From: Candidatus Daviesbacteria bacterium
Lineage (GTDB): Bacteria; Patescibacteriota; Microgenomatia; Daviesbacterales; UBA10151
Direction: 5' to 3'
Length of the DNA stretch: 64,000 nt
Assembly: GCA_016195715.1 (NCBI GenBank)
Contig: JACPZA010000026.1
Coordinates: forward strand, 20,222 to 84,221
How positions within the stretch are numbered: the first letter of the stretch is position 1; each line of letters starts with the position of its first letter. Under the pieces are notes generated by a model. That model was not told the DNA's origin. It was given only the letters and a program-made list of their open reading frames with translations, and searched no databases. The position numbers and the translations under genes were made by a program. Below, in pieces: positions 5,690 through 22,688 of this stretch.

Positions 5690-5693
5690 ATCT

Positions 5694-6119: not shown

Positions 6120-6120
6120 A

Positions 6121-7050: not shown

Positions 7051-8075
7051 GCTTTTCTAAAAACCTTCTTAAAGACTAAATTTAGATCAAATTTTAAAAA
7101 ATATAAGGAAGCTAGGCCAGATATTAGTATGGCTATTGTTGTTAATAAGTGATTTAAAACTGCCACGGCTGAGGCAAGATTTGGGTTTAATCCTAAAATT
7201 CCTCCAAAAACTGCTAAACCAGCTGCTTCAGCTGAGCCAATGTAACCAGGTGCGGAAGGAATTAAAAAAGTTAAAGCTGAGATTAAACTACCCAAAAGTG
7301 TTTTTGCTAAACCTAAATTGATATTTAAAGAGGCGAATATAAAAAACCAAATAAAAGCATCAGAAAAAAGTGCCAGTAAAGAAATCAAAATTAGCTGAAG
7401 TAGTTCTAAGGGGTGGCGATCTAAAATCTCAAAGCCTTCAATAACAGTTAAAGTAGTATTTAAAAAAGTCCTCTTTAGCTTGGGAAAAAATAAAAATGAA
7501 CTGAAAAACTCCAAGATTTTCTTGGATAGAAAAATACTTTTAATCATTAAAATAGTTAAAATTGTAAAAATAAGTAACACTAAAAATACAATTAATTGAA
7601 AATTGCTTGGTAATTTAATCGCTACAAATAAAATCAAAATTGAAATTAACATTAAATTACCCCAAAAATCCAAGAATCGATCAAGTAAAATCCAAATTAC
7701 TGATTTAGTTAAAGGGAGAGAATATTGAGTACTTAAGTAAACGCTTTTAGAAATTTCGCCGACTCTAAGTGGAATGATAAAAGAGAGTAATTGACTTAAA
7801 AAACTTAAAAAAATTAAATTTTTCAAAGGAATTGAGATTGAATTTAAAAGTATTTTTAATCTAATTGACCGCAAAACCGAAGATATAGCAAAAAAAGCTA
7901 ATACTCCAAAAATATATTTTAAATCAGTGGTTTTTAAAACTTTTAACAACTCAGATAAATTAACAAACTTAAGCCAAATTAAAACTAATACCACTCCAAC
8001 TAAGCTGTTAATTAAAATTCTCAAAAAAGCTTTGAAAGAAAGCATGGAATAATAGTATATTAAAGATATGCTCAA
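7047..8075 (-). CDS. Polytopic membrane protein, UPF0104/flippase-like (LPG-synthase TM-region family)
   Basis: About 8 TM helices; FFAISSVLRSIRLKILL segment typical of UPF0104-type proteins. Confidence 0.45.
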   Translation of the reverse strand: MSISLIYYYSMLSFKAFLRILINSLVGVVLVLIWLKFVNLSELLKVLKTTDLKYIFGVLAFFAISSVLRSIRLKILLNSISIPLKNLIFLSFLSQLLSFIIPLRVGEISKSVYLSTQYSLPLTKSVIWILLDRFLDFWGNLMLISILILFVAIKLPSNFQLIVFLVLLIFTILTILMIKSIFLSKKILEFFSSFLFFPKLKRTFLNTTLTVIEGFEILDRHPLELLQLILISLLALFSDAFIWFFIFASLNINLGLAKTLLGSLISALTFLIPSAPGYIGSAEAAGLAVFGGILGLNPNLASAVAVLNHLLTTIAILISGLASLYFLKFDLNLVFKKVFRKA

Positions 8076-8943
8076 AGTAAATCTGCCCGACTTTTTTAGT
8101 AGTCAAAAACTTTGGATAGTAATCTTTCTTATTATAATCATTGCTATACCTACTGGAGCTTTTTTAATCAAGCAGCGGCGTGACACTCAAAATAACACTT
8201 TACAACAAAACTACAATAAAACTGTTACTAAAGATTCAACCTCTAGTGCTAAAGAAGTGCCTAAAAACTTACCAATTGATGTAATTTTAAATGGTGGCTC
8301 TGACAGCTCAAACTCTGCTTCAGCTTCGCAAACTCCAGCTGCTCAAATTAACTTTGGACCAACGCTAAATTTTAAAGTTAACTTAGAAGGAAGACCGGCA
8401 AGCAACCAAGCTACGAGTAATATGTTTGTAGGTATAGCTGCAGGTTCTATCCCTACTACTAATCCCCAATATTTGCTTACTTTTACTGTACCTATTGGAG
8501 CAGATGGATCTTATTCTGGTCTATCACTAGCTGGTCTTACTATTGGTAATACCTATTTAGCTTATTTAAAAGGGCCAGCTCAAATTGCCAGTTCTAGCGC
8601 CTTTGTGGTTCAACCAGCCTCGGCTAATTTAAACTCAGGAACACCTCTAACTTTATTAACTGGAGATTTAAATGAAGACAATATTATCAATAGCCTAGAT
8701 TATGGACTGGCCAAAAATAACTTTGGAACAACATCTAGCTCTGCCAATTGGAACGCAAATATGGACTTTAATTTAGATGGGATTATTAATGTCATAGATT
8801 TAGGTTATATCAGAAAAAATTTAAATAAAGTTGGTGATGGCAATTTATATATCTCCAGAGTTTCCACCACCTCAGCTATTTTAAACCAACCCAGCCAGGG
8901 TGGAGTTGAGGGTGGCTATTGGATGTGGTTTCCTAAATTCTAA
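8068..8943 (+). CDS. Secreted/TM-anchored protein with C-terminal dockerin-like domain
   Basis: N-terminal TM; duplicated Ca-binding dockerin loops GDLNEDNIINSLDYGLAKNN and NLDGIINVIDLGYIRKNL. Confidence 0.55.
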   Translation: MLKVNLPDFFSSQKLWIVIFLIIIIAIPTGAFLIKQRRDTQNNTLQQNYNKTVTKDSTSSAKEVPKNLPIDVILNGGSDSSNSASASQTPAAQINFGPTLNFKVNLEGRPASNQATSNMFVGIAAGSIPTTNPQYLLTFTVPIGADGSYSGLSLAGLTIGNTYLAYLKGPAQIASSSAFVVQPASANLNSGTPLTLLTGDLNEDNIINSLDYGLAKNNFGTTSSSANWNANMDFNLDGIINVIDLGYIRKNLNKVGDGNLYISRVSTTSAILNQPSQGGVEGGYWMWFPKF

Positions 8944-8982
8944 TTGCTTGCTTTTTAAAAATGTTATGTTAGAATTCTGTCC

Positions 8983-9759: not shown

Positions 9760-9901
9760 CGCTTCTTTTAGCTACTTTCTAATCTTGTCAAGTCTTTGAT
9801 TAGCTTGCTATAACAGCCTAAACAATTATTAATAAATATATAAAATAATCAGGTGTATAATTCTGTGAATACTAACTTATAGTATTTAGAACTTAAAAAT
9901 T

Positions 9902-10960
9902 ATGGAACAAAGAATAGAAAAACCTTTATCAGTACCAACAGAACAAATATCCTCTCTTTATCGTTTTTCAAAGAGACTCGATGATGTGAACTGGTCGGCT
10001 AGATATAAACCTAACAGACCTTTTTTAGAAGGACTAGTTCCCCACATGCAAGATTTCTTAGATAGAAATATAAGGAAAATTACCTATGATAATAGTAGCC
10101 TTAGAGCTGTAGTAGGAATTTCAGGAGGATTAGATTCCTCAGTATCAGCAACCCTAGTCGCAGATACAATTACTCAAGCTCAAGATAAAGGCACAATCCA
10201 AAACTCCAGTTTGGTTTTAATCGCATTTCAGGGGATGAGCGAGGAGGATTTAGAATCGGCTCGAAAATTCGCTGAATTGATGGGCTCAAAATACACTAAT
10301 ATCCCGATTGACTATCAGGAAAGAGATTTATCTAAACTTTTGAGAGATCTGGATAGTTTTACTGAGGATTTAATTTTTTCTACCCGTAAACCTAAGGTCT
10401 ATTCAGGAGAGCTTACATCAAGAGTGATCACTCCAATTATTATGGAATATGCTGATAGAATAGGTCATTGTGCTATTGATTCAACCAATGGCACAGAGTA
10501 TATCTTAGGTGAAATAGTCATAGGCGCGGAGGCAGAATGTGCCCCGATTGCAGATTTCTATAAAAGCCAAGTTTATGATTTAGCTGATCTTATTAGCGTC
10601 CCCAAGTTTGTAGTTAATAGACCTCCAATAAATTCAACTTGGGGCCATGATAAGGTTGCTACATATTTTGCAGAAAAACCTGAAGGCTTAACTCCTAGAG
10701 AAGCCTACCAACTCCTTGATCCAGTTTTGTATTACCTCTTTGAAAGAAGGTATCAACCAAGCACTGTTGCAAAAAGATTAGGTCATTCCTTAGAGTTTGT
10801 CTCTAGCCTGGCAACTAGAATTAAAGATCAAGATCACCGAAGAGATATACCCTTTTTTGTAGTAAACGATCGCTTTAAAAAGTATCCTAGAGCCGTTAAA
10901 AGCAGAACCAATGAAGAGATGCAGGGTTTCATGAAGGATAGCTTAGCTATTGCTGGATAA
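9902..10960 (+). CDS. nadE: PP-loop ATP pyrophosphatase, NH3-dependent NAD+ synthetase-like
   Basis: P-loop VVGISGGLDSSVSATL; downstream PIADFYKSQVYDLADLISVP resembles NadE PIGDLYKTQVRELA; the usual YGDGG stretch is divergent (GAEAEC). Confidence 0.55.
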   Translation: MEQRIEKPLSVPTEQISSLYRFSKRLDDVNWSARYKPNRPFLEGLVPHMQDFLDRNIRKITYDNSSLRAVVGISGGLDSSVSATLVADTITQAQDKGTIQNSSLVLIAFQGMSEEDLESARKFAELMGSKYTNIPIDYQERDLSKLLRDLDSFTEDLIFSTRKPKVYSGELTSRVITPIIMEYADRIGHCAIDSTNGTEYILGEIVIGAEAECAPIADFYKSQVYDLADLISVPKFVVNRPPINSTWGHDKVATYFAEKPEGLTPREAYQLLDPVLYYLFERRYQPSTVAKRLGHSLEFVSSLATRIKDQDHRRDIPFFVVNDRFKKYPRAVKSRTNEEMQGFMKDSLAIAG

Positions 10961-10963
10961 ATA

Positions 10964-11506
10964 ATGCTTACAAACAAACTTGCTGTTAAAGAACAAACTA
11001 CAATCGAGACTTGCTTATCAATGTGTTTGATGGCTCTTTTGGACCAAAAGGGTATTAATGTTCCTGCTTGTGAAGAAATAAAAATTTTAATTGAAGGATT
11101 AAAGTTTACTAAATTTGACTATACTACTGGACATTTAGTGTATGTTTCATCTAAATACGATGTGGCCATAGAGCAATATATTGAATTCCCAATCTTTTAT
11201 AAATTTTTATCCAAGTACAAATATCCTTCAAAATTAAAGCTTATTTGTAAAAAGATTAACAAGAAATTAATGATTAAACTGCTTAAGACTTCACCTATAA
11301 TAATTTACGTTGATTCATATTATATATCTGGAAGCGTTCACATATCTCATCTGGTGATTCTTGAAAAATTAGACGATAACTTAGCAATTATTCTTGATCC
11401 ATGGGATGGGAAAAGGAAAAAGATAGAAACAAAGTTACTTGTTAGATCAATTCAAAGCTTAAGGAATAAACTCAAAATAAGCCCTAAAATAATAAGATTT
11501 CTTTGA
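10964..11506 (+). CDS. Possible papain-like (C39-like) cysteine peptidase-fold protein
   Basis: Ordered Q...C (QTTIETCLSMC) ... H (SVHISHLVIL) ... D (ILDPWDG) pattern; 4 bp after nadE-like stop. Confidence 0.3.
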   Translation: MLTNKLAVKEQTTIETCLSMCLMALLDQKGINVPACEEIKILIEGLKFTKFDYTTGHLVYVSSKYDVAIEQYIEFPIFYKFLSKYKYPSKLKLICKKINKKLMIKLLKTSPIIIYVDSYYISGSVHISHLVILEKLDDNLAIILDPWDGKRKKIETKLLVRSIQSLRNKLKISPKIIRFL

Positions 11507-11553
11507 GAAGTAAAGTTTATAAACACACTCGGTGTGTATGTTTAATTTAACAA

Positions 11554-11583
11554 TTGACTTCCTTGAGTATTAACCTTTATATT
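11554..11583 (+). promoter_or_regulatory. Sigma70-like promoter for purA (TTGACT-18-TATATT); transcript possibly leaderless
   Basis: TTGACT at 11554-11559 and TATATT at 11578-11583; the likely purA ATG (11590) lies ~7 nt downstream with no SD. Confidence 0.4.
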
Positions 11584-11589
11584 CTTTGC

Positions 11590-12885
11590 ATGGGGAAATC
11601 ACCTCAAGTTATTGCAGTTGTTGGCGGACAATGGGGGGATGAAGGTAAAGGTAAAATTGTAGATTATTTGGCTTCAGATTGCCAGGTGGTAGTTCGCGCC
11701 CAAGGCGGAGACAATGCCGGACATACTGTGATTAATTCTCAGGGCACATTTAAACTTCACCTAATTCCATCAGGGATATTTAATTCAAAAACTACAAATA
11801 TTATTGGTCCAGGAACTGTAGTTAATCCCAACTCATTAATTTCAGAAATTGACAGCTTAAATCAATCTAAAATCTCTACCAAAAAACTAATTTTGTCTGA
11901 AAAATCCCATCTAATTTTGGATTTTCATATTTATTTAGATTCCATGCAGGAGCGTTTAAGAGGACAAAATAAAATTGGCACCACTCAAAAAGGCATTGGA
12001 CCAGCATATACTAGCAAAGTTAAAAGAATGGGGCTGCGAGCATATCTACTAAAAAATCCAGATCGATTTTTAACTCTTTTAAAACAAATTCTTGCTCAAG
12101 AAGCTTTATATTTTAGCAAAAATAATATACCTAATGAGTTTAAAGTTGAATATTATGAAGAAAAAATCAAAAATTGGTCCAAAATTTTAAGCAATTTTAT
12201 CGGAGATAGTGACTTAGAAATTGGAGATCACCTTGATAAAGGCTCAAAAATATTAATAGAAGGCGCTCAAGGAGCATTACTTGATCTGGATCATGGCACT
12301 TATCCATATGCCACCTCATCAAATACGTCGGTTAATGGTTTATTAAACGGCTCAGGCATTCCAGCAGGCTATTTAACTAAAGTTGTCGGAGTTTTTAAAG
12401 CTTATCAAACCAGAGTTGGAGAAGGTGGCATGCCAACAGAGCTTAAAAATAAATTAGGGGAGCAAATAAGAGTCAAAGGCCAGGAATTTGGTACGACAAC
12501 TGGTAGACCAAGAAGAGTAGGGTACTTTGACTCTTTAGCAGCAAGCTATTCTCATTTAATAAATAAGTATACCGACATTGCTCTAACCCGTTTAGATATA
12601 CTTTCTGGAATAAAAGAGTTAAATATATGCTCCAAATATAGTGTTTCGGGTAAAGATCGTATTCACTTTCCTATTGATGATCAAATTTTATCTCAAGCAG
12701 AGCCTTTTTATATCCAAAAAGACACTTTTTCAGGCTGGGAAGAAGATTTATCCATGGTTAGAAGTTTTAAGGATCTACCTAAACAAGCTCAAGATTATTG
12801 CCAAGCTATTTCTAAAATCTTTAAAGGTGCTAAATTATCTCTAATTGGAGTAGGGCCTCAAAGAGATTCCTTGATTGTGGTATAA
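11590..12885 (+). CDS. purA: Adenylosuccinate synthetase
   Basis: MGKSPQVIAVVGGQWGDEGKGKIVD P-loop at the expected N-terminal position; the ORF-track start at 11554 (TTG) is probably too early. Confidence 0.95.
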   Translation: MGKSPQVIAVVGGQWGDEGKGKIVDYLASDCQVVVRAQGGDNAGHTVINSQGTFKLHLIPSGIFNSKTTNIIGPGTVVNPNSLISEIDSLNQSKISTKKLILSEKSHLILDFHIYLDSMQERLRGQNKIGTTQKGIGPAYTSKVKRMGLRAYLLKNPDRFLTLLKQILAQEALYFSKNNIPNEFKVEYYEEKIKNWSKILSNFIGDSDLEIGDHLDKGSKILIEGAQGALLDLDHGTYPYATSSNTSVNGLLNGSGIPAGYLTKVVGVFKAYQTRVGEGGMPTELKNKLGEQIRVKGQEFGTTTGRPRRVGYFDSLAASYSHLINKYTDIALTRLDILSGIKELNICSKYSVSGKDRIHFPIDDQILSQAEPFYIQKDTFSGWEEDLSMVRSFKDLPKQAQDYCQAISKIFKGAKLSLIGVGPQRDSLIVV

Positions 12886-12891
12886 TATTCT

Positions 12892-14454
12892 ATGGTTTAC
12901 ATAATCGATTTTGGCTCACAAACAGCTCATTTAATCTCCAGGCGTATTCGGGAACTTGGCGCAAGCACAAAAGTAATCAATCCAGATGAAGCTTTAACAG
13001 AAATTAAGCAATTAAAGCCAGATGGCATAATTTTCTCTGGTGGTCCGGCCTCAGTTTATGCTAAAAATGCTCCGACTATAGATCCCAGAGTTTTCACGCT
13101 TAATATACCTATTTTAGGCATTTGCTATGGTTTACAGCTAATTTCCAAAATTTTAGGCGGGGAAGTTATATCGGGCAAAAAAGAATATGGTCCTACTACC
13201 CTGTCAATATTACCTAAAACTTCCCTTTTGAGTAAAAATTTACCCCCCCGCTTTAAAGTCTGGATGAGCCATGGAGATGAGGTTACAAAGCTCCCTGCTG
13301 GATTTGAAGTTTTGGGTAGAAGTGAAACTTTGAAATTTGCTTTTGTTCAAAATTTAGCTAAAAGGCTTTATGGGGTTCAATTTCACCCAGAAGTTGAACA
13401 TACAGAAAATGGCATGCAAGTTTTAAAAAACTTTTTATCCATTTGTCATCCTGATCCATCAGTTGACGAAGAAGGATCTAAACTAGATTCTTCAGTAAAC
13501 TATCAAAACGCCATAAAAACTCAAGTCCAAAATATTAAAGATATTGTTAAAGAAGATTTTGTAATTGGAGCAGTTTCTGGTGGTGTTGATTCAACAGTTG
13601 CAGCAACATTGGTTGTAAAAGCCATTGGTAAAAAATTTATCCCAATTTATATTGACAATGGTTTGATGCGAGCTGGCACGACTAAATGGGTTGAGAAAAT
13701 TTTTAAACAAATTGGTAGTAAGCCTATTATTTTAAAAGTTGAAGAAGAGATGTTAAGACGACTTAAAGGCGTAACTGATTCAGAAAAAAAGCGCCAAATC
13801 ATTGGAAAGTTTTATATTGAGCTTTTTGAGGCTAAAATGCGCGAGGCCCAAAATGCCGGCAAAAACGTCACCTACTTATTGCAAGGCACTATTTACTCGG
13901 ATGTTATTGAAAGCCAGGGTACTAAACATTCTTCAAAAATAAAAAGTCATCACAATGTTGGCGGACTACCTAAAAAAATGAAATTAAAGTTACTTGAGCC
14001 TTTAAGAAATTTTTATAAAGATGAGGTAAGAGCAATTGGCTTACAATTAAATTTACCAAAAGAATTTATTTTTAAACAACCATTTCCAGGTCCAGGTTTT
14101 GCAGTGAGAATTCGTGGCGAAGTTACTAAAGACAGATTAGAAAAAGAAAAGTTAGCAGATAAAATAGTTTTAGATGAATTAGAAAAGAATAATTTACTAA
14201 AAGATGTTTTTATCTCTTTTCCAGTTATGACTGGAAGTTACTCAACGGCAGTTTTAGGTGATGAAAGATTTTTTGGTGAAGTGGTAGCACTTAGAATAGT
14301 TCAATCAAAAGATGTCATGACCGCTAACTTTGCTGAAATTCCATATCCAGTTTTACAAAAAATTTCTTCTAGAATAGTTAATGAAGTTCCAGGAATATCC
14401 CGGGTAGTTTATGACATCTCTACCAAACCTCCAGCCACCATGGAATGGGAATAA
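12892..14454 (+). CDS. guaA: GMP synthase (glutamine-hydrolysing)
   Basis: Class I GATase N-domain (ICYGLQL, HPEV); PP-loop SGGVDSTV; C-terminus KPPATMEWE. Confidence 0.95.
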   Translation: MVYIIDFGSQTAHLISRRIRELGASTKVINPDEALTEIKQLKPDGIIFSGGPASVYAKNAPTIDPRVFTLNIPILGICYGLQLISKILGGEVISGKKEYGPTTLSILPKTSLLSKNLPPRFKVWMSHGDEVTKLPAGFEVLGRSETLKFAFVQNLAKRLYGVQFHPEVEHTENGMQVLKNFLSICHPDPSVDEEGSKLDSSVNYQNAIKTQVQNIKDIVKEDFVIGAVSGGVDSTVAATLVVKAIGKKFIPIYIDNGLMRAGTTKWVEKIFKQIGSKPIILKVEEEMLRRLKGVTDSEKKRQIIGKFYIELFEAKMREAQNAGKNVTYLLQGTIYSDVIESQGTKHSSKIKSHHNVGGLPKKMKLKLLEPLRNFYKDEVRAIGLQLNLPKEFIFKQPFPGPGFAVRIRGEVTKDRLEKEKLADKIVLDELEKNNLLKDVFISFPVMTGSYSTAVLGDERFFGEVVALRIVQSKDVMTANFAEIPYPVLQKISSRIVNEVPGISRVVYDISTKPPATMEWE

Positions 14455-14523
14455 ATTATTGTTATCTTTATAGTAAAATCTATAGGTAAATTAATAAATT
14501 ATTTCTCTTAAAATTATAAAGGC

Positions 14524-14553
14524 TTGACAAAGTTTTTTAAAAGATTCAAAGTT
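14524..14553 (+). promoter_or_regulatory. Candidate sigma70-like promoter (TTGACA-N18-TATATT) upstream of the cohesin/dockerin gene
   Basis: ggcTTGACAaagttttttaaaagattcaaagtTATATTaaggag. Confidence 0.35.
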
Positions 14554-14594
14554 ATATTAAGGAGTAATTTTTGCTTTAAAACCTAAATTCTGTC

Positions 14595-17500
14595 ATGGCT
14601 AGCTCTCCCTTCCAAAAGCTCCTTTCAAAATACTATAAAAACCAAAAATTAATTTTAACTCTGTCAGCCATTGGATTAATTTTATTTATAGCTATCTCTG
14701 CTACTTTTTCTTTTAGAAATACTTTATTTAAAAGACTTTTTCCAAAACCTCCTTCTCATGCTGTAGCTCGTCCTCCTTCTAATCCAACTATTACCCAAAC
14801 TGCAACTGATTTGACAATTGCTAATAATTATTATTCTGTTACTTTTAGTAAAGATAACGGGTCAATCACTCAAATAAAGGATATTCTCAGTAACAGTGTA
14901 GTTTCGACAGGCAATTCCACCGCTTGTTTATGGATGGCTACTTTTCAAAGTAGCCCAGCCTTTGGAGGATGTGGATATAGTTCTACAAGCACAACAAATC
15001 CTTTTACAGCCAGCGCTGCAGTTACCAATGGAGATAACTCAATTACTCAAACTTTCACTTATGCTTATACAGCTGGGGCTCCATCAAATCAAAAAATAGG
15101 CGCAACAGTTACTATTAGCGCCTCAACTGATACTTATGTAGATTTTAAAATTGATCTGACTAACAACTCAGGCCATACTATGCTTTCCACTGATATTCCC
15201 TATGATTTAATAGGCTCAAGTTCAACAATTAAATATGGTTATGCTACTGACTTTTACCCTGGAGTACGACTGAAACCAAATTGGTTTTCCGCTAACTGGC
15301 TTAATGGAACAAATTGCCAGACTAGAACTGGAACCCCAATTTATTGTGATTTACTAGATAATTATCCCAGCGCTAAAAATTTTGCTGATTTCTTAGCTTA
15401 TGAGCTAAATGATGGCGGACAGTTTTCAGAATACAGTGTTTATCCAAGCACTGCTTCTTCTGATCCACCAATTCAGTCCGCTGAGCTTGGTTTTGTTCAT
15501 GGAATTGCCGCATCTAACACCTTTTTAACTCGCCATAGTTTTACTACTTATGTACCAAATGGCAGCACCTACTCATCAGTCACCATGCGAATTCGAGCTG
15601 TGGATAATGCAGAGCAAGCTATTACAAACTACCGCATTGATAATGGAATGGATGACCCAGCTATCTTCCCTACTTTGCAGATCCGGATGGGTGCAAATTT
15701 TAATAAGTTTGTCTCATCTTTAATGGTTAAAGGAGACCTAAGTGGACCCACCAGTACCTACAATAATTTAACAGCTAGATTAGATCAACTGCCTTTAAAT
15801 ACTTTATATCATTTAGTTAATTATGAACCATACGGATTTGAAACAGGCGAACCAGATGTGCTGCCCCCAATGACTAAATGCGCTACTGCTCCTCCCTGCA
15901 CAGCTGAATTAAATAATTTTATTAGCGCCATCCACAATAAAGGTATGTTAGTCATGCCTTATACTATTTCTGTTTGGTGGCAAATAGCCTCTTCTCCTTC
16001 ACCTTGCCCAACTCCTTCACCTATGCCAGATTCACCGACTGTCTTAAACTTACCACTGGCATCTCCACCCTTAACTACTAGTGACGTAGCTATCCAGCCA
16101 ATGAGTATTAGCACACACCATAACGATTGTAATGATATTGGTTTTTATGTTTCCCCTACTCATCCTTATGTAAAAAATATTATTGACCAAAAAATTAAAG
16201 AATGGAGTAGCACTGGATTAGTACCTGTTGATTATATATTCTCTGATACATTAGGTTATACAAGTTTTTATAATGCTTATGGAAATAAAGATCAAAATCC
16301 AAATGCTTCAGACCCAAATGGTGGAGATAAAGTCACTAGTGCATTTTATGATGGGTGGAGAGACTTTATTAAAAGAAATACCGCCCCGGGAATAACTCAA
16401 GGAATTGGTGTTGAAGGAGGATGGGATAGATTAGCTAGATATGCTGTTAGTTTCTATGATTCGATACTTTTTAGTTTGCAACCTACTTTCCCCTATTTTT
16501 ATGCTTTTGGTAGTAATATGAGCGATGGGCAAAGTAGCTCTAATTGGGATCCTTATCCTTTAGGAGGCTGGCTTTATCATGACAAAGTTTTAATCTCACA
16601 ACATGATCTGGCAAATTCAACCCAAAGCACCAGTAAAGATCTAATTAGGTTCAATACTGCTTTTGGGATTTCTAATGTTTATTTATGGAGTTCAATAGTT
16701 GGTAGCACCCCTGGAGCCGATCCTTTTTTAGACATGGTGGCCTACCTACAAAAAAATGTTTTAGGAAAATATTTAGGTCAACCAATGCTATCCCACCAAT
16801 ACCTTCCTGATCCTCTACATGCACCTGATTCACTAATTACCAAAACTACTTATGCAACAGCTGGGAGTGGCAATATTGATATCACTACAAATTGGGCAAC
16901 TCCCTCAGGCCAAACTTATGACACACCAGCAGGAACTTTAGTTCCTGGAGGGTTTTTAGCTCAAACTGTTGATGGTAAGCTAACAGCTGGAATTTTTTCT
17001 AAGTTCAACGGACAAAATTTATCAAATGGAGACCACTATATTTTTGTAGAAAATACTGCTCCTGGAACTTATAGAATAAAACATACTGCTGTTCCTTCAG
17101 TAAATAGTCAATTAAAGATAAACTTACCTCTTATTTCATCAGTGACCAGTTTTTCTGCTTATGATAGAACTGGCACTAAAATAACTGGAGGAGATTTAAT
17201 ATCAGGTACTGGAACTACCTCTGGAACTTATAATTTTACTAATAATCAACTCCTATTTATAGCCAATACAACCACAAACTCAACTACAATTGATTATTTC
17301 GAGGTAACTGGTCCAGCTGTTACTTCTGCCGCCTTCTTCACTCTCACCCCTTCTTCAGCGACTGTTAATGTAGGACAAAACGGATCAGTTAATGTGATGG
17401 CTAGAACTGATACTGATGCAGCTAATTTATTTGTAGCTAAATTAAAGTTTGATCCAAGTCAGGTAGCAGTGACTGGTATCTCCACCTCCTCTGGAACATT

Positions 17501-18494
17501 TATCACCCAGTTTACTGAAGGGTATTATTCCAATACTGGTGCTGATGCTGGAACCATCTCAATTATTGGTGGAGTGCCTAATCCGGGTTTTCAAACTTCA
17601 GGGACAAGCGCTCAGATGGCAACTATTAAATTTAGCGCCATTGCTCCGGGAACAAGCAGTATTAATTTTGACAGCACCTCAGCTATCTATAGAAACTCAG
17701 ATAATGTTAATATTTTATCCTTAGCTTCTTCTACTGGAACTAATTTGACTATTAATGCAGTAGCCACCCCAACTCCAACCCCTACACCAACTGGCACTCC
17801 TTCGTTTACCCCTACTCCAACACCCTCACCCATACCAACGTTCACCCCTACCTTTAGTCCAACCCCAACTCCAACTGCTAGTCCACTCGCTTGCAATATC
17901 AGTTCTGCTGCTTGGACTAATGTTCCAACTAATCCTGTTAATCAAAATACTGTGATTAATTTAGTAGCTAATGCAACTGGTGATTGTACTGGTAAAGTCG
18001 CATCATTTGCAGTTTGGGAAGATGATTCACCGCTTGATGCTGATGATCCTGTCATGACTAATCCTGTTAATGCTTCACTCGTTGATGCTGGAGGTGGTAA
18101 CTTTACCGCCACAACTTCTTGGTCTGCTGAATATCAACAAGATGGTTTGTTTGGTATAGATGATCCTCCAGAATATTACTTTAATGTTAATTTACTAGGT
18201 GATCTAACTACTATTAGATCGGCTAGTCCAGAAGTCCAAGTCCTTAGAGCTGGTGGTGGGACTTTCCCTCAAGCTGGAGATGCTAACTCAGATGGAACAG
18301 TCGATCTCGTTGATCTATCTGTGATGTTAACTTACTACAACTCTACCTCTGGCTTTCCAACTAACATAGATATTAACTTTGATTCTGCTACTAACAACTA
18401 CATACCAGATGGGACAATTAATGCCCTAGATTATGGTCAGATGCTAGATATTTTAGTTAATAGTGGCGTTATTCATAGAACCATTAGTCCATAA
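14595..18494 (+). CDS. Large cell-surface scaffoldin-like protein: N-terminal TM, cohesin-like domain, Pro/Thr linker, C-terminal dockerin
   Basis: Cohesin-like segment (VNVGQNGSVNVMARTDTDAANLFVAKLKFDPSQVAV ... QMATIKFSAIAPGTSSINF); PTPTPTPT linker; dockerin loops GDANSDGTVDLVDLSVMLTYYN and YIPDGTINALDYGQMLDIL. Confidence 0.6.
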   Translation: MASSPFQKLLSKYYKNQKLILTLSAIGLILFIAISATFSFRNTLFKRLFPKPPSHAVARPPSNPTITQTATDLTIANNYYSVTFSKDNGSITQIKDILSNSVVSTGNSTACLWMATFQSSPAFGGCGYSSTSTTNPFTASAAVTNGDNSITQTFTYAYTAGAPSNQKIGATVTISASTDTYVDFKIDLTNNSGHTMLSTDIPYDLIGSSSTIKYGYATDFYPGVRLKPNWFSANWLNGTNCQTRTGTPIYCDLLDNYPSAKNFADFLAYELNDGGQFSEYSVYPSTASSDPPIQSAELGFVHGIAASNTFLTRHSFTTYVPNGSTYSSVTMRIRAVDNAEQAITNYRIDNGMDDPAIFPTLQIRMGANFNKFVSSLMVKGDLSGPTSTYNNLTARLDQLPLNTLYHLVNYEPYGFETGEPDVLPPMTKCATAPPCTAELNNFISAIHNKGMLVMPYTISVWWQIASSPSPCPTPSPMPDSPTVLNLPLASPPLTTSDVAIQPMSISTHHNDCNDIGFYVSPTHPYVKNIIDQKIKEWSSTGLVPVDYIFSDTLGYTSFYNAYGNKDQNPNASDPNGGDKVTSAFYDGWRDFIKRNTAPGITQGIGVEGGWDRLARYAVSFYDSILFSLQPTFPYFYAFGSNMSDGQSSSNWDPYPLGGWLYHDKVLISQHDLANSTQSTSKDLIRFNTAFGISNVYLWSSIVGSTPGADPFLDMVAYLQKNVLGKYLGQPMLSHQYLPDPLHAPDSLITKTTYATAGSGNIDITTNWATPSGQTYDTPAGTLVPGGFLAQTVDGKLTAGIFSKFNGQNLSNGDHYIFVENTAPGTYRIKHTAVPSVNSQLKINLPLISSVTSFSAYDRTGTKITGGDLISGTGTTSGTYNFTNNQLLFIANTTTNSTTIDYFEVTGPAVTSAAFFTLTPSSATVNVGQNGSVNVMARTDTDAANLFVAKLKFDPSQVAVTGISTSSGTFITQFTEGYYSNTGADAGTISIIGGVPNPGFQTSGTSAQMATIKFSAIAPGTSSINFDSTSAIYRNSDNVNILSLASSTGTNLTINAVATPTPTPTPTGTPSFTPTPTPSPIPTFTPTFSPTPTPTASPLACNISSAAWTNVPTNPVNQNTVINLVANATGDCTGKVASFAVWEDDSPLDADDPVMTNPVNASLVDAGGGNFTATTSWSAEYQQDGLFGIDDPPEYYFNVNLLGDLTTIRSASPEVQVLRAGGGTFPQAGDANSDGTVDLVDLSVMLTYYNSTSGFPTNIDINFDSATNNYIPDGTINALDYGQMLDILVNSGVIHRTISP

Positions 18495-18553
18495 ACAAAA
18501 AGATTTGACTATCTATATGCTTATGTGTTTTGATAAAGTAAGAGCAGATATCA

Positions 18554-21500
18554 ATGCTAAAAGTTAAAATAGGTTCTAGTCAAAAAGGTGTTGCCCATCT
18601 GCTGCTATTAATTGCTGCTTTAGGTCTAATTTCATTCTTTTTTATCTCTAATACCTTTGACTTTAAAAATAGGTTGCTTGGTGCTCTGTTTCCCAAACCC
18701 TCATCTTATGCTCAAGCTAAAAACCCCTTAGCAGAAAAGATAAATAAAAAGATCCAAGATAAAATGGACCTAGAAGTTCTAACTAAAAAGGTAGAAGCAT
18801 TAAGCCAAAACTTAATAGCTCACCCAGAGCATAAGGAGAAAGGCTCAAAACAATTAGTAGATTTACTCAAACAAAGAAAAGCTGTTTTAATTGCTTTAAT
18901 CCAAGAAGATCCTGAAGCTGCTAAAGCTTTAATTTTGCAAGATCAATATCTTCAAGCTGATGCAGCTTACTCTACCTCTGATATAGAGACTAAAGTAACT
19001 CTAACTGGTAATTTAGGGATTATCCATCATGATGATTTTACTAATCCTGAAAACTCAACTACCTTTGATACTCTAACTGCTAATAACCAAACCTACACCC
19101 TTTATACTAATACCCCTTTCTTTGCTGCTAAGAATAAAGCTACTGAGATCACAGTAACTGGTTATAAAATAGATAACTCCATTCTGGTTAACTCAACCCA
19201 ATATAGTAAGGTTCTAGGTATCTCTGACTTTTTAGTTCCAAAAGCTTTGGCTGCTGGAAATAGTACAGTAAATGTAGCAGTTATAGCTACTACTTTTTCT
19301 GATTCTACCCAAACAGATCCATTTAATATGCCCCATATCCAATCACTTTATTCAGGTTCACCAGGACATGATGTTGTTAGTTATTTTAATGAAGTCTCTT
19401 ATGGTAAAACCACTATTGTTCCATCATTTTATGGTCCATATAAACTAGCAAATACCAAAGCAGCTTATTGTTTTGGTAATAACCAGCTGGGACCTGATAT
19501 TATTAAAGCGGCTGATCCAGATATTAATTTTACTAATGTTAATCAAGTCATTTATCTAGTTGATTGTGGCTCAAATTTTCAGTCTGTATCTGGCGGTCCT
19601 ACCTCAATTAATACTGCAGAAGGGACATTTTATATTGCTCCTGCTTTTATTGGTGGGGTTCAAGGACAAAACCTGAATACTTTTATCCATGAAACAGCTC
19701 ATGAGATAGCTGAGATTGGCCAAACTTCGGCTAACTATACTTATAACAACCATGCTAATTATTTTATGTGCCAACCTGATATTTTTGACCCAGTAACTAA
19801 CCTTGGACCAAACTGTACTACATCAGATTATGGGGATCAATTTGATGTATTAGGGGGGACTCAAGCATCTTCTTCAGATCAAACACTAGAAGAGGCAGGC
19901 CATATGAATGCTTACCATAAATCCCGTTCTGGTTGGTTTTCTGGTAATAACTACATTACTTTATCTACCCCTGGCACTTATTCTTATACTTTAGCACCAA
20001 TAGAAAACCCCACTACCTCTACCCAAGCTTTATATATCCCAAGAGGCACCTCTGGAACTGGATTTACCCTTGAATATAGACAACCTATTGGTTGGGATTC
20101 TTGGGAAGCTAGTGACCCATCTGCCTGTAAATATGGATGTACTGTTACCAAAGGTCCCTCAATTAGATTCATTTATACTTCTGGTACTGGAGATACTCAA
20201 GGTATAGACACAACTCCAAATAATGTTACCAACAGTCCATCTTACTGGCCAGATGAAGATTACTGGAATGGAGCAGCTTTAGAGCCAGGTAATACTTTTA
20301 CAGATCCAGAGTATGGTATAACTATCCAAACTATCTCAGCAGATACAAATGGTACTACAGTTTCTGTAACTATACCTACTATTACTTGTACTCATGCATC
20401 ACCTACACTTACTGTATCTCCGTCTACTCAAACTCTGACTCCAGGAATAGCAGGTATATATACTGCCACTATTACCAATAATGATTCATCTGGTTGTCCA
20501 GCTAATAAGTTCTGGTTTGCTGATGCAGGTGGCTCTGGTACATTAGTAGTTCCTGATAGTAGATGGGTTAGTATTGCCCCAGGTCAGTCAGCAAATGTTA
20601 ATATCTCAGTCACTCTTGCTTCAGCCTCAACTGATTTTGGTTATGCTCAAAATATTAATTTAAGAACCTTTTCAAACTCAGTCGGAGTAGCTGAAACAGA
20701 TAAATATATTACTTATCAGGTCGCTTCTGTAGCTGATACAACTCCACCTTCTGCTCCCACTAATCTAACTGTTACAACAGCTGGTGCTGGACAGGTTAAT
20801 TTAAGCTGGGGGGCTGCTACTGATAATGTTGGAATAGTGGGATATACAATTTGGAGAGACTCAGGTGGTATACGAACTGTTAGTGCGAACAATACTTCAA
20901 GTATTGATGCTAACCTCGCTCCAAACACTACCTATACCTACTATGTCCAAGCTTTTGATAGGAAAAATAATAAGACAAGTTCTAATACTGTCACAGTGAC
21001 TACTCCTGCTAAAACTGATACCACACGACCTTCTGTGCCCACTAATTTATCAGCTCAATTTATTAGTGCCAATGAAGTAATTTTAAGTTGGTCTCCTAGT
21101 ACTGATAATGTTGGTGTGACAGCATATACAATCACTGGTGGCTGGCCAAATAATGAAAGTGGTACTAGTTTTGTTGGTCCAACTATTAATTCAGTAGACA
21201 TTAAAGGTCTTCAGTATAGTGAATCATATTACTATAGTATTAATGCTTTTGATGGTGATGGTAATCAAGCTGGGGCTTGGCAAAATTTTAACATTGTCAC
21301 AGCAGCGCCAGGGACTTTGCCTCCCACCCAACCAACTAATTTCCAAGCTCAAATCATCTCCAGTGGGACCAATGTAACCTGGAATGCAAGCACAGGAGGA
21401 ACTGGTGCAATAAGTTATGTAGTGTACAGGAATGCTCTTATAGCTGCTACAGTTTGTGGAACATCCTACTTTGATAGTGGAGCAAGTTACAAGCAATACC

Positions 21501-22027
21501 ATGTCCAGGCAGTTGATAGTCTAGGAAATCTATCTATTCCTTCTGCAAATATATCTTCAAATCCTGCTCCTATCCCTGAACCATCCCCAGTTACTACTAC
21601 TCTTTGTGGTTCTCCTTCTCCCACACCTTCTTCTAGCCCATCCCCAACTCTTGTGCCTACCCCAACCCCAACTTTAGCTCCAACTCCAACACCCACTCCT
21701 ACACCCACCCCAACTACTGCTCCAGATACTACTAAACCTACTGTTTCTATTACCTCTCCTCTAAATAATAGTACTGTTACCAGAAGTACTACAGTAACAA
21801 TTCAAGCCTCTGCATCAGACCCAGTAGTTTTAGGACAAGTAGCTAGTGGTGTCTCTAAAATAGAGTTTTATGTGAATAGTAGTCTAACCTGTACAGATAC
21901 TACCTCACCATATTCTTGTTCCTGGAAAGTCCCTGCTGCTAAAGGTAAAACTTATACCCTCCAAGCTAAAGCCTATGACAATGCTAATAATACAAATACT
22001 AGTACTATCACTGTGACTGCTAATTAA
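18554..22027 (+). CDS. Large cell-surface zincin metalloprotease-like protein with three fibronectin type III domains, Pro/Thr linker and C-terminal Ig-like domain
   Basis: HETAHEIAEIG HExxH motif; three FN3 repeats (PSAPTNLTVT...VNLSWGAATDNVGIVGYTIWRD...YTYYVQAFD; PSVPTNLSAQ...; PTQPTNFQAQ...); PTPTPT linker; Ig-like TKPTVSITSP...YTLQAKAYDNANN. Confidence 0.6.
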   Translation: MLKVKIGSSQKGVAHLLLLIAALGLISFFFISNTFDFKNRLLGALFPKPSSYAQAKNPLAEKINKKIQDKMDLEVLTKKVEALSQNLIAHPEHKEKGSKQLVDLLKQRKAVLIALIQEDPEAAKALILQDQYLQADAAYSTSDIETKVTLTGNLGIIHHDDFTNPENSTTFDTLTANNQTYTLYTNTPFFAAKNKATEITVTGYKIDNSILVNSTQYSKVLGISDFLVPKALAAGNSTVNVAVIATTFSDSTQTDPFNMPHIQSLYSGSPGHDVVSYFNEVSYGKTTIVPSFYGPYKLANTKAAYCFGNNQLGPDIIKAADPDINFTNVNQVIYLVDCGSNFQSVSGGPTSINTAEGTFYIAPAFIGGVQGQNLNTFIHETAHEIAEIGQTSANYTYNNHANYFMCQPDIFDPVTNLGPNCTTSDYGDQFDVLGGTQASSSDQTLEEAGHMNAYHKSRSGWFSGNNYITLSTPGTYSYTLAPIENPTTSTQALYIPRGTSGTGFTLEYRQPIGWDSWEASDPSACKYGCTVTKGPSIRFIYTSGTGDTQGIDTTPNNVTNSPSYWPDEDYWNGAALEPGNTFTDPEYGITIQTISADTNGTTVSVTIPTITCTHASPTLTVSPSTQTLTPGIAGIYTATITNNDSSGCPANKFWFADAGGSGTLVVPDSRWVSIAPGQSANVNISVTLASASTDFGYAQNINLRTFSNSVGVAETDKYITYQVASVADTTPPSAPTNLTVTTAGAGQVNLSWGAATDNVGIVGYTIWRDSGGIRTVSANNTSSIDANLAPNTTYTYYVQAFDRKNNKTSSNTVTVTTPAKTDTTRPSVPTNLSAQFISANEVILSWSPSTDNVGVTAYTITGGWPNNESGTSFVGPTINSVDIKGLQYSESYYYSINAFDGDGNQAGAWQNFNIVTAAPGTLPPTQPTNFQAQIISSGTNVTWNASTGGTGAISYVVYRNALIAATVCGTSYFDSGASYKQYHVQAVDSLGNLSIPSANISSNPAPIPEPSPVTTTLCGSPSPTPSSSPSPTLVPTPTPTLAPTPTPTPTPTPTTAPDTTKPTVSITSPLNNSTVTRSTTVTIQASASDPVVLGQVASGVSKIEFYVNSSLTCTDTTSPYSCSWKVPAAKGKTYTLQAKAYDNANNTNTSTITVTAN

Positions 22028-22160
22028 AATTTCTAATTTGACAAAGTTCACAAAACTAAACTATAATAGCCAAAGCTTGAGACAGTAAGTCTTCATCAGT
22101 TGATGATATAAATCTTACCGAGGCGACTATTATTTTAGCGCCTCAATAGGCGCTAATTTT

Positions 22161-22688
22161 ATGCCAAAAACAAGAATTCAGAAAGAAGATACAGTTGTCA
22201 ACTTAACAGATAAGCTTTCTAAAGCAAAATCTGTGGTTTTTGCTGATTATCGCGGTATGACTATGAAGCAACTGTCTGATCTTAGATCAAAATTAAGAGA
22301 GCAAAATAGCCAGTTTTCCATAACTAAAAATAATTTACTAAATTTAGCTTTAAAAAATGCTAAGCTAGACCTAGATCAAGATGGTTTAACTGGTCCAACT
22401 GCTACTTTATTTAATTTTGAAGATGAAATTTCCCCAATCAAACTATTAACTAAAGCTTTAAAGGACAATCAAATTGGATCAATTAAGTCAGGAATTTTAA
22501 ATGGTGAAATTTTAAGCAATATTCAAATTCTCAAGTTAGCTTCTCTACCTTCTAAAGAAGAGCTCAGAGCTAAAGTTGTAGGTGGAATTTCTGGACCACT
22601 TTATGGAATAGTTGGAGTTTTGCAAGCTAATTTAAGAAACTTAAGTTATGTGCTAGATCAAATTAAAATTCAAAAAGGAGGTGTTTAA
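22161..22688 (+). CDS. rplJ: 50S ribosomal protein L10
   Basis: L10 N-terminus ([40 protein letters not shown]). Confidence 0.9.

What the first reader, a model, noticed from the sequence alone, without database searches (positions are those of the whole stretch)
14595..18494. Cohesin-like plus dockerin protein (and a separate dockerin protein at 8068-8943): cellulosome-style assembly parts in a CPR-like genome
Seen in sequence:
- The 1299-aa ORF has an N-terminal TM.
- It has a segment matching the cohesin fold pattern (VNVGQNGSVNVMARTDTDAANLFVAKLKFDPSQVAVTGIS ... SAQMATIKFSAIAPGTSSINFD; compare C. thermocellum CipA cohesins AKPGDTVRIPVRF...DFVYSYDPNVLEI...FATIVAKVKSGAPNGLSVIKF).
- A PTPTPT linker follows.
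- The C-terminus is a dockerin with two Ca-binding loops (GDANSDGTVDLVDLSVM..., YIPDGTINALDYGQM...).
- The 291-aa ORF at 8068 also ends in a duplicated dockerin (GDLNEDNIINSLDYGL..., NLDGIINVIDLGYI...).

Established knowledge: cohesin-dockerin pairs assemble cellulosomes and other surface complexes, mostly in Firmicutes and some archaea.

Inference: these are surface scaffoldin-like assemblies in a small-genome, probably episymbiotic bacterium. Together with the adjacent zincin-FN3 protein they may be used for attachment or for degrading host or polymer surfaces.
Basis: partly seen in the sequence, partly recalled or inferred. Interest (0 to 1): 0.6.

Follow-up and report, generated by a model that had tools for sequence, protein, structure and literature searches.

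The report
Cohesin-dockerin enzyme in a Daviesbacteria genome
A large surface protein of an ultra-small (CPR) bacterium carries a real but very divergent cohesin module and a dockerin behind a sugar-cleaving-enzyme-like domain. It belongs to a big, mostly unannotated family of such "snap-together" proteins in these bacteria, not to a classical cellulosome.

Summary
ORF 14595-18494 is identical to hypothetical protein HY025_04110 of Candidatus Daviesbacteria.

Its layout is:
- N-terminal TM segment.
- An ~850-aa DUF6259-related, GH129/GH101-like domain (weak evidence).
- A cohesin-fold module, aa 912-1055.
- A Pro/Thr linker.
- A ~130-aa module with no Pfam or PDB sequence match ("X"), abutting the dockerin.
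- A C-terminal dockerin.

Pfam Cohesin does not hit this protein. Three other results support the assignment:
- An AlphaFold model (pLDDT 85.8) matches only cohesins among the top 50 PDB hits.
- A family profile hits solved cohesins (E 8.6e-6).
- 31 of 116 relatives hit PF00963.

The dockerin passes Pfam's cut-off when scanned alone. Its second Ca loop carries an insertion. ORF 8068-8943 has a canonical dockerin.

About 80% of the closest 153 relatives combine an N-terminal TM, one or more cohesins and a C-terminal dockerin in one polypeptide. All named relatives are Patescibacteria.

The window holds one cohesin and two dockerins, with no multi-cohesin scaffoldin, CBM3 or SLH. "Cellulosome-style" therefore overstates it. 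The best reading is a non-cellulosomal cohesin-dockerin system that assembles surface enzymes; binding itself is untested.

Cohesin/dockerin genes in Microgenomates have been reported in passing. This is a new member of a known kind.

The parts
14595..18494 (+). Whole gene: 1299-aa modular protein (HY025_04110, Candidatus Daviesbacteria)
   Evidence: ORF list, translation, and a 100% identical database protein.
14649..14714 (+). N-terminal hydrophobic segment, aa 19-40 (membrane anchor or long signal peptide)
   Evidence: Read directly from the translation. 127 of 153 relatives have such a segment.
14706..14768 (+). Leader motif after the TM: FSFRNTLFKRLFPKPPSHAVA. It is shared with the next gene and with many family members.
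   Evidence: Within the window the motif occurs only in ORF 14595 and ORF 18554. It is present in 77 of 154 proteins of the set (20 LFPKxxSxA type, 57 IFxPKA type).
14772..17309 (+). aa ~60-905: DUF6259-related domain. Candidate GH129/GH101/GH31-like glycoside hydrolase (beta-sandwich, then an alpha/beta region, then a beta-sandwich).
   Evidence: - Homologues P0155, P0156 and P0002 pass Pfam DUF6259.
- The 5-sequence profile hits GH129 NagBb 5wzn at E 9e-4 through the motif GFxxxxPDxLPP...H..G.L. A second collinear motif, PL..L.HDKV, also lines up.
- The AF2 model is poor (pLDDT 42.9).
- The top Foldseek hits of that model are GH129, GH101 and GH31, at TM ~0.2.
17328..17759 (+). aa 912-1055: divergent cohesin module
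   Evidence: - AF2 model: pLDDT 85.8, pTM 0.82.
- The top 50 PDB Foldseek hits are all cohesins, E 6e-8 to 2e-5, TM 0.62-0.76.
- The family profile hits cohesin chains 4uyp_A (E 8.6e-6) and 4ums (E 1.2e-4).
- 31 of 116 relatives hit PF00963.
- There is no direct Pfam hit.
17763..17879 (+). aa 1057-1095: Pro/Thr-rich linker
   Evidence: Read directly from the translation.
17880..18269 (+). aa 1096-1225: conserved module with no Pfam or PDB sequence match, immediately upstream of the dockerin ('X'-like). It has two invariant Cys and the motif W.AEYQ.DG.FG..DPPEYYF.
   Evidence: - Found between the cohesin and the dockerin in 20 relatives; the dockerin follows within a few residues in 19 of them.
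- No Pfam or PDB sequence match.
18273..18476 (+). aa 1227-1294: dockerin. The first Ca loop is canonical (DANSDGTVDLVD). The second carries a ~9-aa insertion (DIN[FDSATNNYI]PDGTINALD).
   Evidence: - Pfam Dockerin_1: 30.5 bits when scanned alone, 19.1 bits in the whole protein.
- Family dockerin HMM: 63.1 bits, E 3e-19, covering both repeats.
- Comparison of the loop with relatives.
8068..8943 (+). Separate 291-aa protein: N-terminal TM (aa 15-34), an unassigned middle region, and a dockerin
8662..8826 (+). Dockerin of the 291-aa protein (aa 199-253), with two canonical loops (DLNEDNIINSLD, DFNLDGIINVID)
   Evidence: - Pfam Dockerin_1: 31.4 bits, E 2.2e-7, above the cut-off.
- Regex match on both loops.
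- It scores only 27.3 bits, in split hits, against the HMM built from the Coh-Doc family's dockerins. This suggests a different subtype.
18554..22027 (+). Adjacent 1157-aa protein with the same leader motif. It has an M6-like zinc metalloprotease domain (aa 246-516, HETAH), FN3 repeats, a PT linker and Big_7. It has no cohesin or dockerin.

Best explanation
Proposal. The gene encodes a secreted or membrane-tethered modular enzyme of a Patescibacteria-wide, non-cellulosomal cohesin-dockerin system.

Shown:
- The domain order is TM/leader, an ~850-aa DUF6259-type domain, cohesin, PT linker, X module, dockerin.
- The cohesin has the cohesin fold and is a remote sequence homologue of solved cohesins.
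- The dockerin is a two-repeat Ca-loop module.
- In the closest 153 relatives, the cohesin(s) and a C-terminal dockerin sit in the same polypeptide in about 80% of cases. Many different cargo domains lie upstream of them.

Inferred:
- The N-terminal segment holds the protein at, or exports it across, the cytoplasmic membrane.
- The cohesin binds, with Ca2+, a dockerin of another protein. The 291-aa dockerin protein at 8068-8943 is one candidate partner.
- The protein's own X-dockerin plugs into a cohesin of a further family member.
- In this way glycosidase-like, protease-like and binding modules would be chained or clustered on the cell surface.
- The catalytic part most likely cleaves a glycan by a GH129/GH101-like retaining mechanism. 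The substrate is unknown.
For: Fold and homology of the cohesin:
-.
- 31 of 116 relatives hit PF00963.

Dockerins:
-.

Family architecture:
- 96 of 116 relatives hit Dockerin_1.
- 122 of 153 have a dockerin loop, and in all 122 every cohesin lies upstream of it. In 118 the dockerin is C-terminal. 127 of 153 have an N-terminal hydrophobic segment.

Family size:
- 6075 cluster representatives at E<=1e-3 and 1778 at E<=1e-10.

Cargo diversity in relatives:
- DUF4185, CBM96, GH5, Glyco_hydro_cc, Trypsin_2 and NHL.

Several members per genome:
- P0009, P0161 and P0017 carry neighbouring accession numbers, MCL57839xx-57844xx.
- In locus L003, two TM-Coh-Doc genes lie in tandem.

Taxonomy:
- Every named relative is Daviesbacteria or 'Patescibacteria group'.

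N-terminal domain:
-.
Against: - No binding was tested or modelled. Partner specificity is unknown.
- Pfam Cohesin does not recognise this module directly.
- The second Ca loop of the dockerin carries an insertion that may impair or alter binding.
- Only one cohesin and two dockerins lie in the 64-kb window. A genome-wide census was not possible.
- The glycosidase assignment rests on one 44-residue motif match (E 9e-4), a short second motif, and a fold search on a low-confidence model. Catalytic residues could not be aligned.
- Whether the N-terminal segment is cleaved is unknown.
Confidence: 0.6

Rival explanations
1. It is part of a true cellulosome. A plant-cell-wall-degrading complex would be built on a multi-cohesin scaffoldin, as has been suggested for another Microgenomates lineage.
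For: - Cohesin and dockerin modules and PT linkers are the hallmark parts.
- A few relatives carry GH5, Glyco_hydro_cc or CBM96.
- Bell et al. 2022 (PMC9123182) read expressed cohesin/dockerin genes of Cand. Shapirobacterales as a cellulosome.
Against: - The window has a single cohesin and no scaffoldin, CBM3, SLH, GH9 or GH48.
- Family members typically have 1-2 cohesins plus their own dockerin behind a TM segment. This is not the scaffoldin-plus-enzyme division of labour.
- The cargo here is DUF6259-like, and the neighbouring gene is a protease.
Confidence: 0.08
2. The two modules do not form cohesin-dockerin pairs at all. The cohesin-fold module would act as a spacer or as a glycan- or host-binding beta-sandwich. 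The dockerin-like Ca module would stabilise the protein or bind another target, such as the host envelope or the organism's own wall.
For: - The cohesin is too divergent for Pfam.
- The second Ca loop is atypical.
- Beta-sandwich modules are versatile binders.
- A dockerin-domain protein is essential in a cultured Saccharibacterium and was proposed to target host glycans (PMC10633639).
Against: - About 80% of the closest relatives hold the cohesin and the dockerin in one polypeptide in a fixed order. This argues for a functional link between the two module types.
- The homology to bona fide dockerin-binding cohesins is significant.
Confidence: 0.2
3. The cohesin and the X-dockerin of the same chain bind each other in cis. 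This would form an intramolecular clasp that regulates or stabilises the enzyme, rather than linking different proteins.
For: - Both modules are in one polypeptide, joined by a flexible ~40-aa PT linker long enough to fold back.
- The same arrangement recurs in the family.
Against: - Dockerin-only proteins exist beside them (ORF 8068).
- Some relatives have 2-8 cohesins and a single dockerin. Both facts fit binding in trans better.
- No structural test was possible.
Confidence: 0.1

Closest known systems
Non-cellulosomal cohesin/dockerin-bearing glycoside hydrolases of Clostridium perfringens (e.g. GH84C NagJ cohesin, GH33 sialidase cohesin; PDB 2jh2, 2vo8, 2w1n)
   Same: - Large secreted glycosidases carry a single cohesin and/or a dockerin-type module that links enzymes into complexes unrelated to cellulose.
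- These cohesins are among the best structural matches: ranks 9, 11 and 31, TM 0.64-0.74.
   Different: - Sequence identity is only 8-16%.
- Here the cohesin and the dockerin are in the same chain, with a module of unknown family before the dockerin.
- Here there is an N-terminal TM segment and leader motif.
- The catalytic family differs.
- The organism is a Patescibacterium.
Adaptor / enzyme-bearing scaffoldins with X-dockerin (e.g. Acetivibrio cellulolyticus ScaA; type II cohesin PDB 3ghp, 3fnk, 3l8q)
   Same: - One polypeptide combines cohesin(s) with an X-module-plus-dockerin dyad at the C-terminus, so it both receives and is received.
- PT-rich linkers are present.
- The structures are matched by the model.
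   Different: - There is one cohesin instead of many, and no CBM3.
- The X module shows no detectable sequence similarity to any solved chain or Pfam family.
- Nothing in the context points to plant-cell-wall degradation.
[quoted passage not shown] 2009 (reference seen; paper not held)
   Same: - Cohesin and dockerin modules occur in organisms that do not degrade cellulose.
- 2xdh is matched at E 8e-6, TM 0.62.
   Different: - The lineage differs.
- The family here is very large. It typically has the TM-Coh-Doc order and a wide range of cargo domains.
GH129 alpha-N-acetylgalactosaminidase NagBb (PDB 5wzn) and GH101 EngBF
   Same: - The profile of the N-terminal domain shares the motif G(F/Y)D...PD(V/Y)LP...(D/S)A.H..G.L, and a second collinear motif PL..L.HD(K/C)V.
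- These enzymes are also the top fold-search hits.
   Different: - The match is weak: E 9e-4 and TM ~0.2 on a model with pLDDT 42.9.
- Catalytic residues were not aligned.
- The Pfam family of the relatives is DUF6259, a family with no assigned function.

Membership tests
Cohesin module (Pfam PF00963) | Direct match to the Pfam Cohesin model at or above the gathering score | tested here: not met
   No Cohesin hit at E<=1 for the whole protein, or at E<=10 for aa 906-1056 alone.
Cohesin module (Pfam PF00963) | Nine-stranded beta-sandwich (jelly-roll) fold of ~140-150 aa | tested here: met
   - AF2 model of aa 911-1056: pLDDT 85.8, pTM 0.82.
- The top 50 Foldseek PDB hits are all cohesins, E 5.8e-8 to 2.1e-5, probability 1.00, TM 0.62-0.76.
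Cohesin module (Pfam PF00963) | Sequence homology to established cohesins | tested here: met
   - The 24-sequence family profile hits solved cohesins 4uyp_A (E 8.6e-6), 4ums_A (1.2e-4) and 6kgc_A (2e-3).
- 31 of 116 relatives hit PF00963, best E 1.1e-13.
Cohesin module (Pfam PF00963) | Ca-dependent binding of a dockerin | not testable with these tools
   No complex prediction or experiment was available.
Dockerin (Pfam PF00404), ORF 14595-18494 | Match to Dockerin_1 at or above the gathering score (22.9 bits) | tested here: met
   - 30.5 bits, E 4.1e-7, for the C-terminal 78 aa alone.
- Only 19.1 bits when the whole protein is scanned.
- Family-specific dockerin HMM: 63.1 bits, E 3e-19.
Dockerin (Pfam PF00404), ORF 14595-18494 | Two tandem repeats, each with a 12-residue EF-hand-like loop (DxNxDGxIxxxD) followed by a helix | tested here: inconclusive
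   - Loop 1, DANSDGTVDLVD, is canonical.
- Loop 2 reads DIN[FDSATNNYI]PDGTINALD, a ~9-aa insertion relative to the relatives' DINDDGVVNAFD.
- Two relatives also carry extra residues in the second loop.
Dockerin (Pfam PF00404), ORF 8068-8943 | Pfam match above the cut-off, and two canonical Ca loops | tested here: met
   - 31.4 bits, E 2.2e-7, covering model positions 2-57 of 57.
- Loops DLNEDNIINSLD and DFNLDGIINVID.
Cellulosome (system) | Scaffoldin with multiple cohesins | tested here: not met
   One cohesin-like domain in the whole 64-kb window by family HMM. The rest of the genome was not available.
Cellulosome (system) | Cellulose-binding CBM3 and cell-surface anchoring through SLH or sortase | tested here: not met
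   No such Pfam domains in ORFs 14595, 8068 or 18554. The proteins have an N-terminal TM segment instead.
Cellulosome (system) | Set of dockerin-bearing plant-cell-wall hydrolases (GH5/9/48 and others) | tested here: not met
   Only two dockerin proteins lie in the window. One has a DUF6259-like cargo and the other has no recognisable catalytic domain.
DUF6259 (PF19773) / GH129-GH101-like glycosidases | Match to the family model | tested here: inconclusive
   - No direct Pfam hit for aa 56-902.
- Homologues P0155 (E 8e-67 to the query), P0156 and P0002 pass DUF6259 at 40.5, 43.3 and 30.6 bits against a cut-off of 28.7.
DUF6259 (PF19773) / GH129-GH101-like glycosidases | (beta/alpha)8 barrel with a catalytic Asp/Glu pair | tested here: inconclusive
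   - The AF2 model has pLDDT 42.9.
- Its secondary structure runs beta, then alpha/beta, then beta.
- Invariant Asp residues lie in VDYIFSD and GGWD; the Glu before GGWD is conserved in 4 of 5 sequences. They could not be aligned to the GH129 catalytic residues.
X-dockerin dyad (type II/III dockerins) | A structured module immediately N-terminal to the dockerin, homologous to known X modules | tested here: inconclusive
   - Position: met. The module abuts the dockerin here and in 19 of 20 relatives.
- Homology to known X modules: not found in Pfam or in PDB sequences.

The most novel reading that the evidence does not exclude
Patescibacteria may use a lineage-specific set of self-complementary TM-cohesin-(X)-dockerin cassettes. 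These would polymerise membrane-tethered glycosidases, proteases and lectin-like modules head-to-tail into a surface lattice or fibre. That structure would be an attack-and-attachment apparatus aimed at the envelope of a host cell, not at plant biomass. This protein and the neighbouring M6-like protease would be two of its working parts.
Probability: 0.2. Interest if true: 0.65.

Novelty: new member of a known kind. Interest (0 to 1): 0.35.

Why it matters
How CPR/Patescibacteria bacteria build their cell surface and engage hosts is largely unknown.

- A dockerin-domain protein is essential in the one genetically tractable Saccharibacterium (PMC10633639).
- This locus shows that at least some of these 'dockerin proteins' also carry a cohesin that standard annotation misses.
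- The family that combines both modules is large: thousands of 50%-identity clusters.

Together these give a concrete, testable hypothesis for surface protein assembly in these organisms. They also give a profile with which the hidden cohesins can be found. The result does not overturn anything: non-cellulosomal cohesin-dockerin systems are long known.

Tried and rejected
- Pfam scan of the whole protein and of the isolated cohesin-like segment: no Cohesin hit.
- Single-sequence phmmer of the segment against PDB sequences: only chance hits.
- NCBIfam scan of ORFs 14595, 8983 and 10964: nothing.
- Word-indexed homologue searches gave very few hits: 2, 3 and 3 proteins. The exhaustive profile search was needed.
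- AF2 model of the 850-aa N-terminal domain with a 5-sequence alignment: pLDDT 42.9, not trustworthy. The fold search on it is treated as a weak hint only.
- Sub-profile of the putative catalytic core against PDB, to align catalytic residues: only the first motif matched.
- X module against PDB sequences and Pfam: nothing.
- The protease region of the neighbour against PDB sequences: nothing.
With the 4-sequence alignment it returned only 2 loci, so it gave no taxonomic census.
- Literature searches for DUF6259 and PF19773 returned nothing. So did 'cohesin domain' combined with Parcubacteria.
- Peer et al. 2009 is not held.
- The reading 'classical cellulosome' was considered and rejected for lack of its defining parts.

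Full report
**What is there.** ORF 14595-18494 (+) encodes 1299 aa. It is 100% identical to the hypothetical protein HY025_04110 of a Candidatus Daviesbacteria MAG, on a contig of 85,469 bp. The window is AT-rich, with GC 0.31-0.41. ORF 8068-8943 encodes 291 aa with an N-terminal hydrophobic segment and two dockerin loops.

**Dockerins.**
- Pfam Dockerin_1 hits the 291-aa protein at 31.4 bits, E 2.2e-7, with a cut-off of 22.9 bits and model positions 2-57 of 57 covered.
- In the 1299-aa protein it scores 19.1 bits when the whole protein is scanned. It scores 30.5 bits, E 4.1e-7, when the last 78 aa are scanned alone.
- An HMM I built from the dockerins of 79 relatives (query excluded) scores the 1299-aa C-terminus at 63.1 bits, E 3e-19, across both repeats. 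The 291-aa protein's dockerin scores only 27.3 bits in split hits. The two dockerins are therefore probably of different subtypes.
- The first Ca loop of the large protein is canonical. The second reads DIN[FDSATNNYI]PDGTINALD, where relatives have DINDDGVVNAFD, so it carries a ~9-aa insertion. Two relatives also have extra residues in the second loop.

**Cohesin.**
Pfam Cohesin does not hit the whole protein or the isolated segment, even at E<=10. Single-sequence phmmer against PDB sequences gives only chance matches.
- Three homologues were found by word search: P0003-P0005, at 36-43% identity. Two of them are TM-domain-dockerin proteins.
- These gave a 4-sequence alignment. With it, AlphaFold2 produced a confident model of aa 911-1056: pLDDT 85.8, pTM 0.82, all-beta.
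- In Foldseek against the PDB, the top 50 hits are all cohesin modules of types I and II, from C. perfringens and from A. fulgidus. E-values run from 5.8e-8 to 2.1e-5, probability is 1.00, and TM is 0.62-0.76.
- An exhaustive HMMER search with the same alignment found 6075 50%-identity cluster representatives at E<=1e-3, 1778 at E<=1e-10 and 165 at E<=1e-30.
- A 24-sequence domain profile from these hits matches solved cohesins by sequence alone: 4uyp_A at E 8.6e-6, 4ums_A at 1.2e-4, 6kgc_A at 2e-3.
- Of 116 full-length relatives, 31 hit Pfam Cohesin (best E 1.1e-13) and 96 hit Dockerin_1.
- The module is therefore a genuine but divergent cohesin that Pfam misses in most family members.

**Family architecture.** The figures below cover the 153 closest proteins, including this one.
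- 127 have an N-terminal hydrophobic segment.
- 122 have a dockerin loop. In all 122 every cohesin lies upstream of it, and in 118 the dockerin is C-terminal.
- 19 are minimal TM-Coh-Doc proteins of under 350 aa.
- 34 have two or more cohesins, and one has eight.
- Cargo domains in relatives include DUF4185, CBM96, GH5, Glyco_hydro_cc, Trypsin_2, NHL, Laminin_G_3 and F5/8-type C.
- Every relative that carries a source name is from Candidatus Daviesbacteria or the 'Patescibacteria group'. They are annotated as hypothetical, dockerin-domain or, in one case, PQQ-binding-like beta-propeller repeat proteins, never as cohesin.
- Several members occur per genome.
- In locus L003, two TM-Coh-Doc genes lie in tandem next to rplL-rplJ. 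This echoes the position of the present genes just upstream of rplJ.

**The rest of the protein.**
- Residues 1096-1225 form a conserved module with two invariant Cys and the motif W.AEYQ.DG.FG..DPPEYYF. It recurs in 20 relatives between the cohesin and the dockerin. In 19 of them it abuts the dockerin within a few residues, which is positionally an X-dockerin dyad. It matches nothing in Pfam or in PDB sequences.
- Residues ~60-905 have only three detectable homologues. All three pass Pfam DUF6259, although the query itself does not.
- A 5-sequence profile hits the GH129 alpha-N-acetylgalactosaminidase NagBb (5wzn) at E 9e-4, through the motif GFxxxxPDxLPP...H..G.L. A second collinear motif, PL..L.HDKV, also lines up.
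- The AF2 model of this domain is poor, at pLDDT 42.9. Its secondary structure runs beta-sandwich, then alpha/beta, then beta-sandwich.
- The best Foldseek hits of that model are GH129, GH101 (EngBF) and GH31 enzymes, at TM ~0.2.
- I take this as weak-to-moderate support for a GH129/GH101-like glycosidase. The catalytic residues could not be aligned.

**Surroundings.**
- The genes lie in a ~15-kb stretch between nusG-rplK-rplA (4811-7050) and rplJ-rplL (22161-23283). The stretch also holds an LPG_synthase_TM protein, NAD synthase, purA and guaA.
- The next gene, 18554-22027, has the HETAH motif and an M6-family metalloprotease domain (E 9.9e-11, below NCBIfam's cut-off). It also has FN3 repeats, a PT linker and Big_7.
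- That gene shares with ORF 14595 a leader of the form TM + F(R/K)NxL..LFPKPxSxA. No other ORF in the window has it, but half of the family has it or a related form.
- The window contains exactly one cohesin-like domain and two dockerins. It has no CBM3, SLH or classical cellulases.

**Interpretation.**
- Shown: the module identities, their order, and the strong co-occurrence of cohesin and dockerin in one polypeptide across a large Patescibacteria-centred family.
- Inferred: the modules mediate Ca-dependent protein-protein assembly at the cell surface and cluster enzymes such as this glycosidase-like protein.
- It cannot be decided here whether assembly is head-to-tail among paralogues, hierarchical, or in cis.
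- A classical cellulosome is not supported.

**Closest known analogues.**
- The non-cellulosomal cohesin/dockerin-bearing glycosidases of C. perfringens.
- Adaptor or enzyme-bearing scaffoldins with an X-dockerin.
- The non-cellulosomal modules surveyed by Peer et al. 2009. The reference was seen, but the paper is not held.

**Prior reports in CPR.**
- Expressed cohesin and dockerin genes in Cand. Shapirobacterales (Microgenomates) were read as a cellulosome (PMC9123182).
- An essential dockerin-domain protein was reported in a Saccharibacterium (PMC10633639).
- I found no description of the Coh-X-Doc cassette or of the size of this family in the searchable literature. That library is incomplete.

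**Verdict.** This is a new member of a known kind (non-cellulosomal cohesin-dockerin modular proteins) and is of moderate interest.

Noticed in passing
window 31854-42032 (+): A 3392-aa ORF whose only Pfam match is an N-terminal MerR-type HTH (aa 15-51, E 3.7e-12). The region has a higher GC (~0.40) than its surroundings (~0.33).
   Followed up: no
window 4811-23283: The conserved nusG-rplK-rplA / rplJ-rplL cluster is split by ~15 kb of unrelated genes: LPG_synthase_TM, the dockerin protein, NAD synthase, purA, guaA, the Coh-X-Doc protein and the M6-like protease. A perfect TTGACA-18-TATAAT lies at 22038-22067, before rplJ. In the related locus L003, two TM-Coh-Doc genes also sit next to rplL-rplJ.
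   Followed up: partly
window 14706-14768 and 18665-18727; family members P0006, P0007, P0010, P0011, P0015, P0020, P0027, P0033 and others: A conserved leader follows the N-terminal TM. One form is F(R/K)(N/D)xL(F/L)xxLFPKPxSxA; a second form is ...YLVQxxTQIFKPKA. It is found in 77 of 154 proteins of the set, and within the window only in the two adjacent large surface proteins. It could be a lineage-specific export or processing signal.
   Followed up: partly
window 17880-18269 (aa 1096-1225 of ORF 14595): A ~125-aa module with two invariant Cys and the motif W.AEYQ.DG.FG..DPPEYYF. It directly abuts the dockerin in nearly all of the 20 relatives that have it, and has no match in Pfam or in PDB sequences. 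Its fold was not determined.
   Followed up: partly
L003 4427-5593 (388-aa protein); also P0026, P0040-P0042, P0044: In some family members the cohesin domain is split by an insertion. In the L003 protein the insert itself contains EF-hand/dockerin-like loops (DVNKNGKIDLED, FDTNGNKRIDISE).
   Followed up: no
relative P0115 (835 aa) and other family members: The cargo domains fused to the Coh-(X)-Doc cassette include DUF4185, CBM96, GH5, Trypsin_2 and NHL repeats. The cassette therefore appears to be a general carrier for extracellular enzymes in Patescibacteria.
   Followed up: partly
L001 (CAZDEH010000003.1, labelled 'uncultured Gammaproteobacteria' MAG): A typical TM-Coh-PT-Doc protein (42% identical cohesin) lies on a contig with 37.6% GC that is labelled Gammaproteobacteria. 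The label may be a binning or taxonomy error, or the family may reach beyond Patescibacteria.
   Followed up: no
window 22681-23283 (+): The L7/L12 ORF as listed is 200 aa from a GTG, and the Pfam domains start only at aa 77. The true start is probably further downstream.
   Followed up: no
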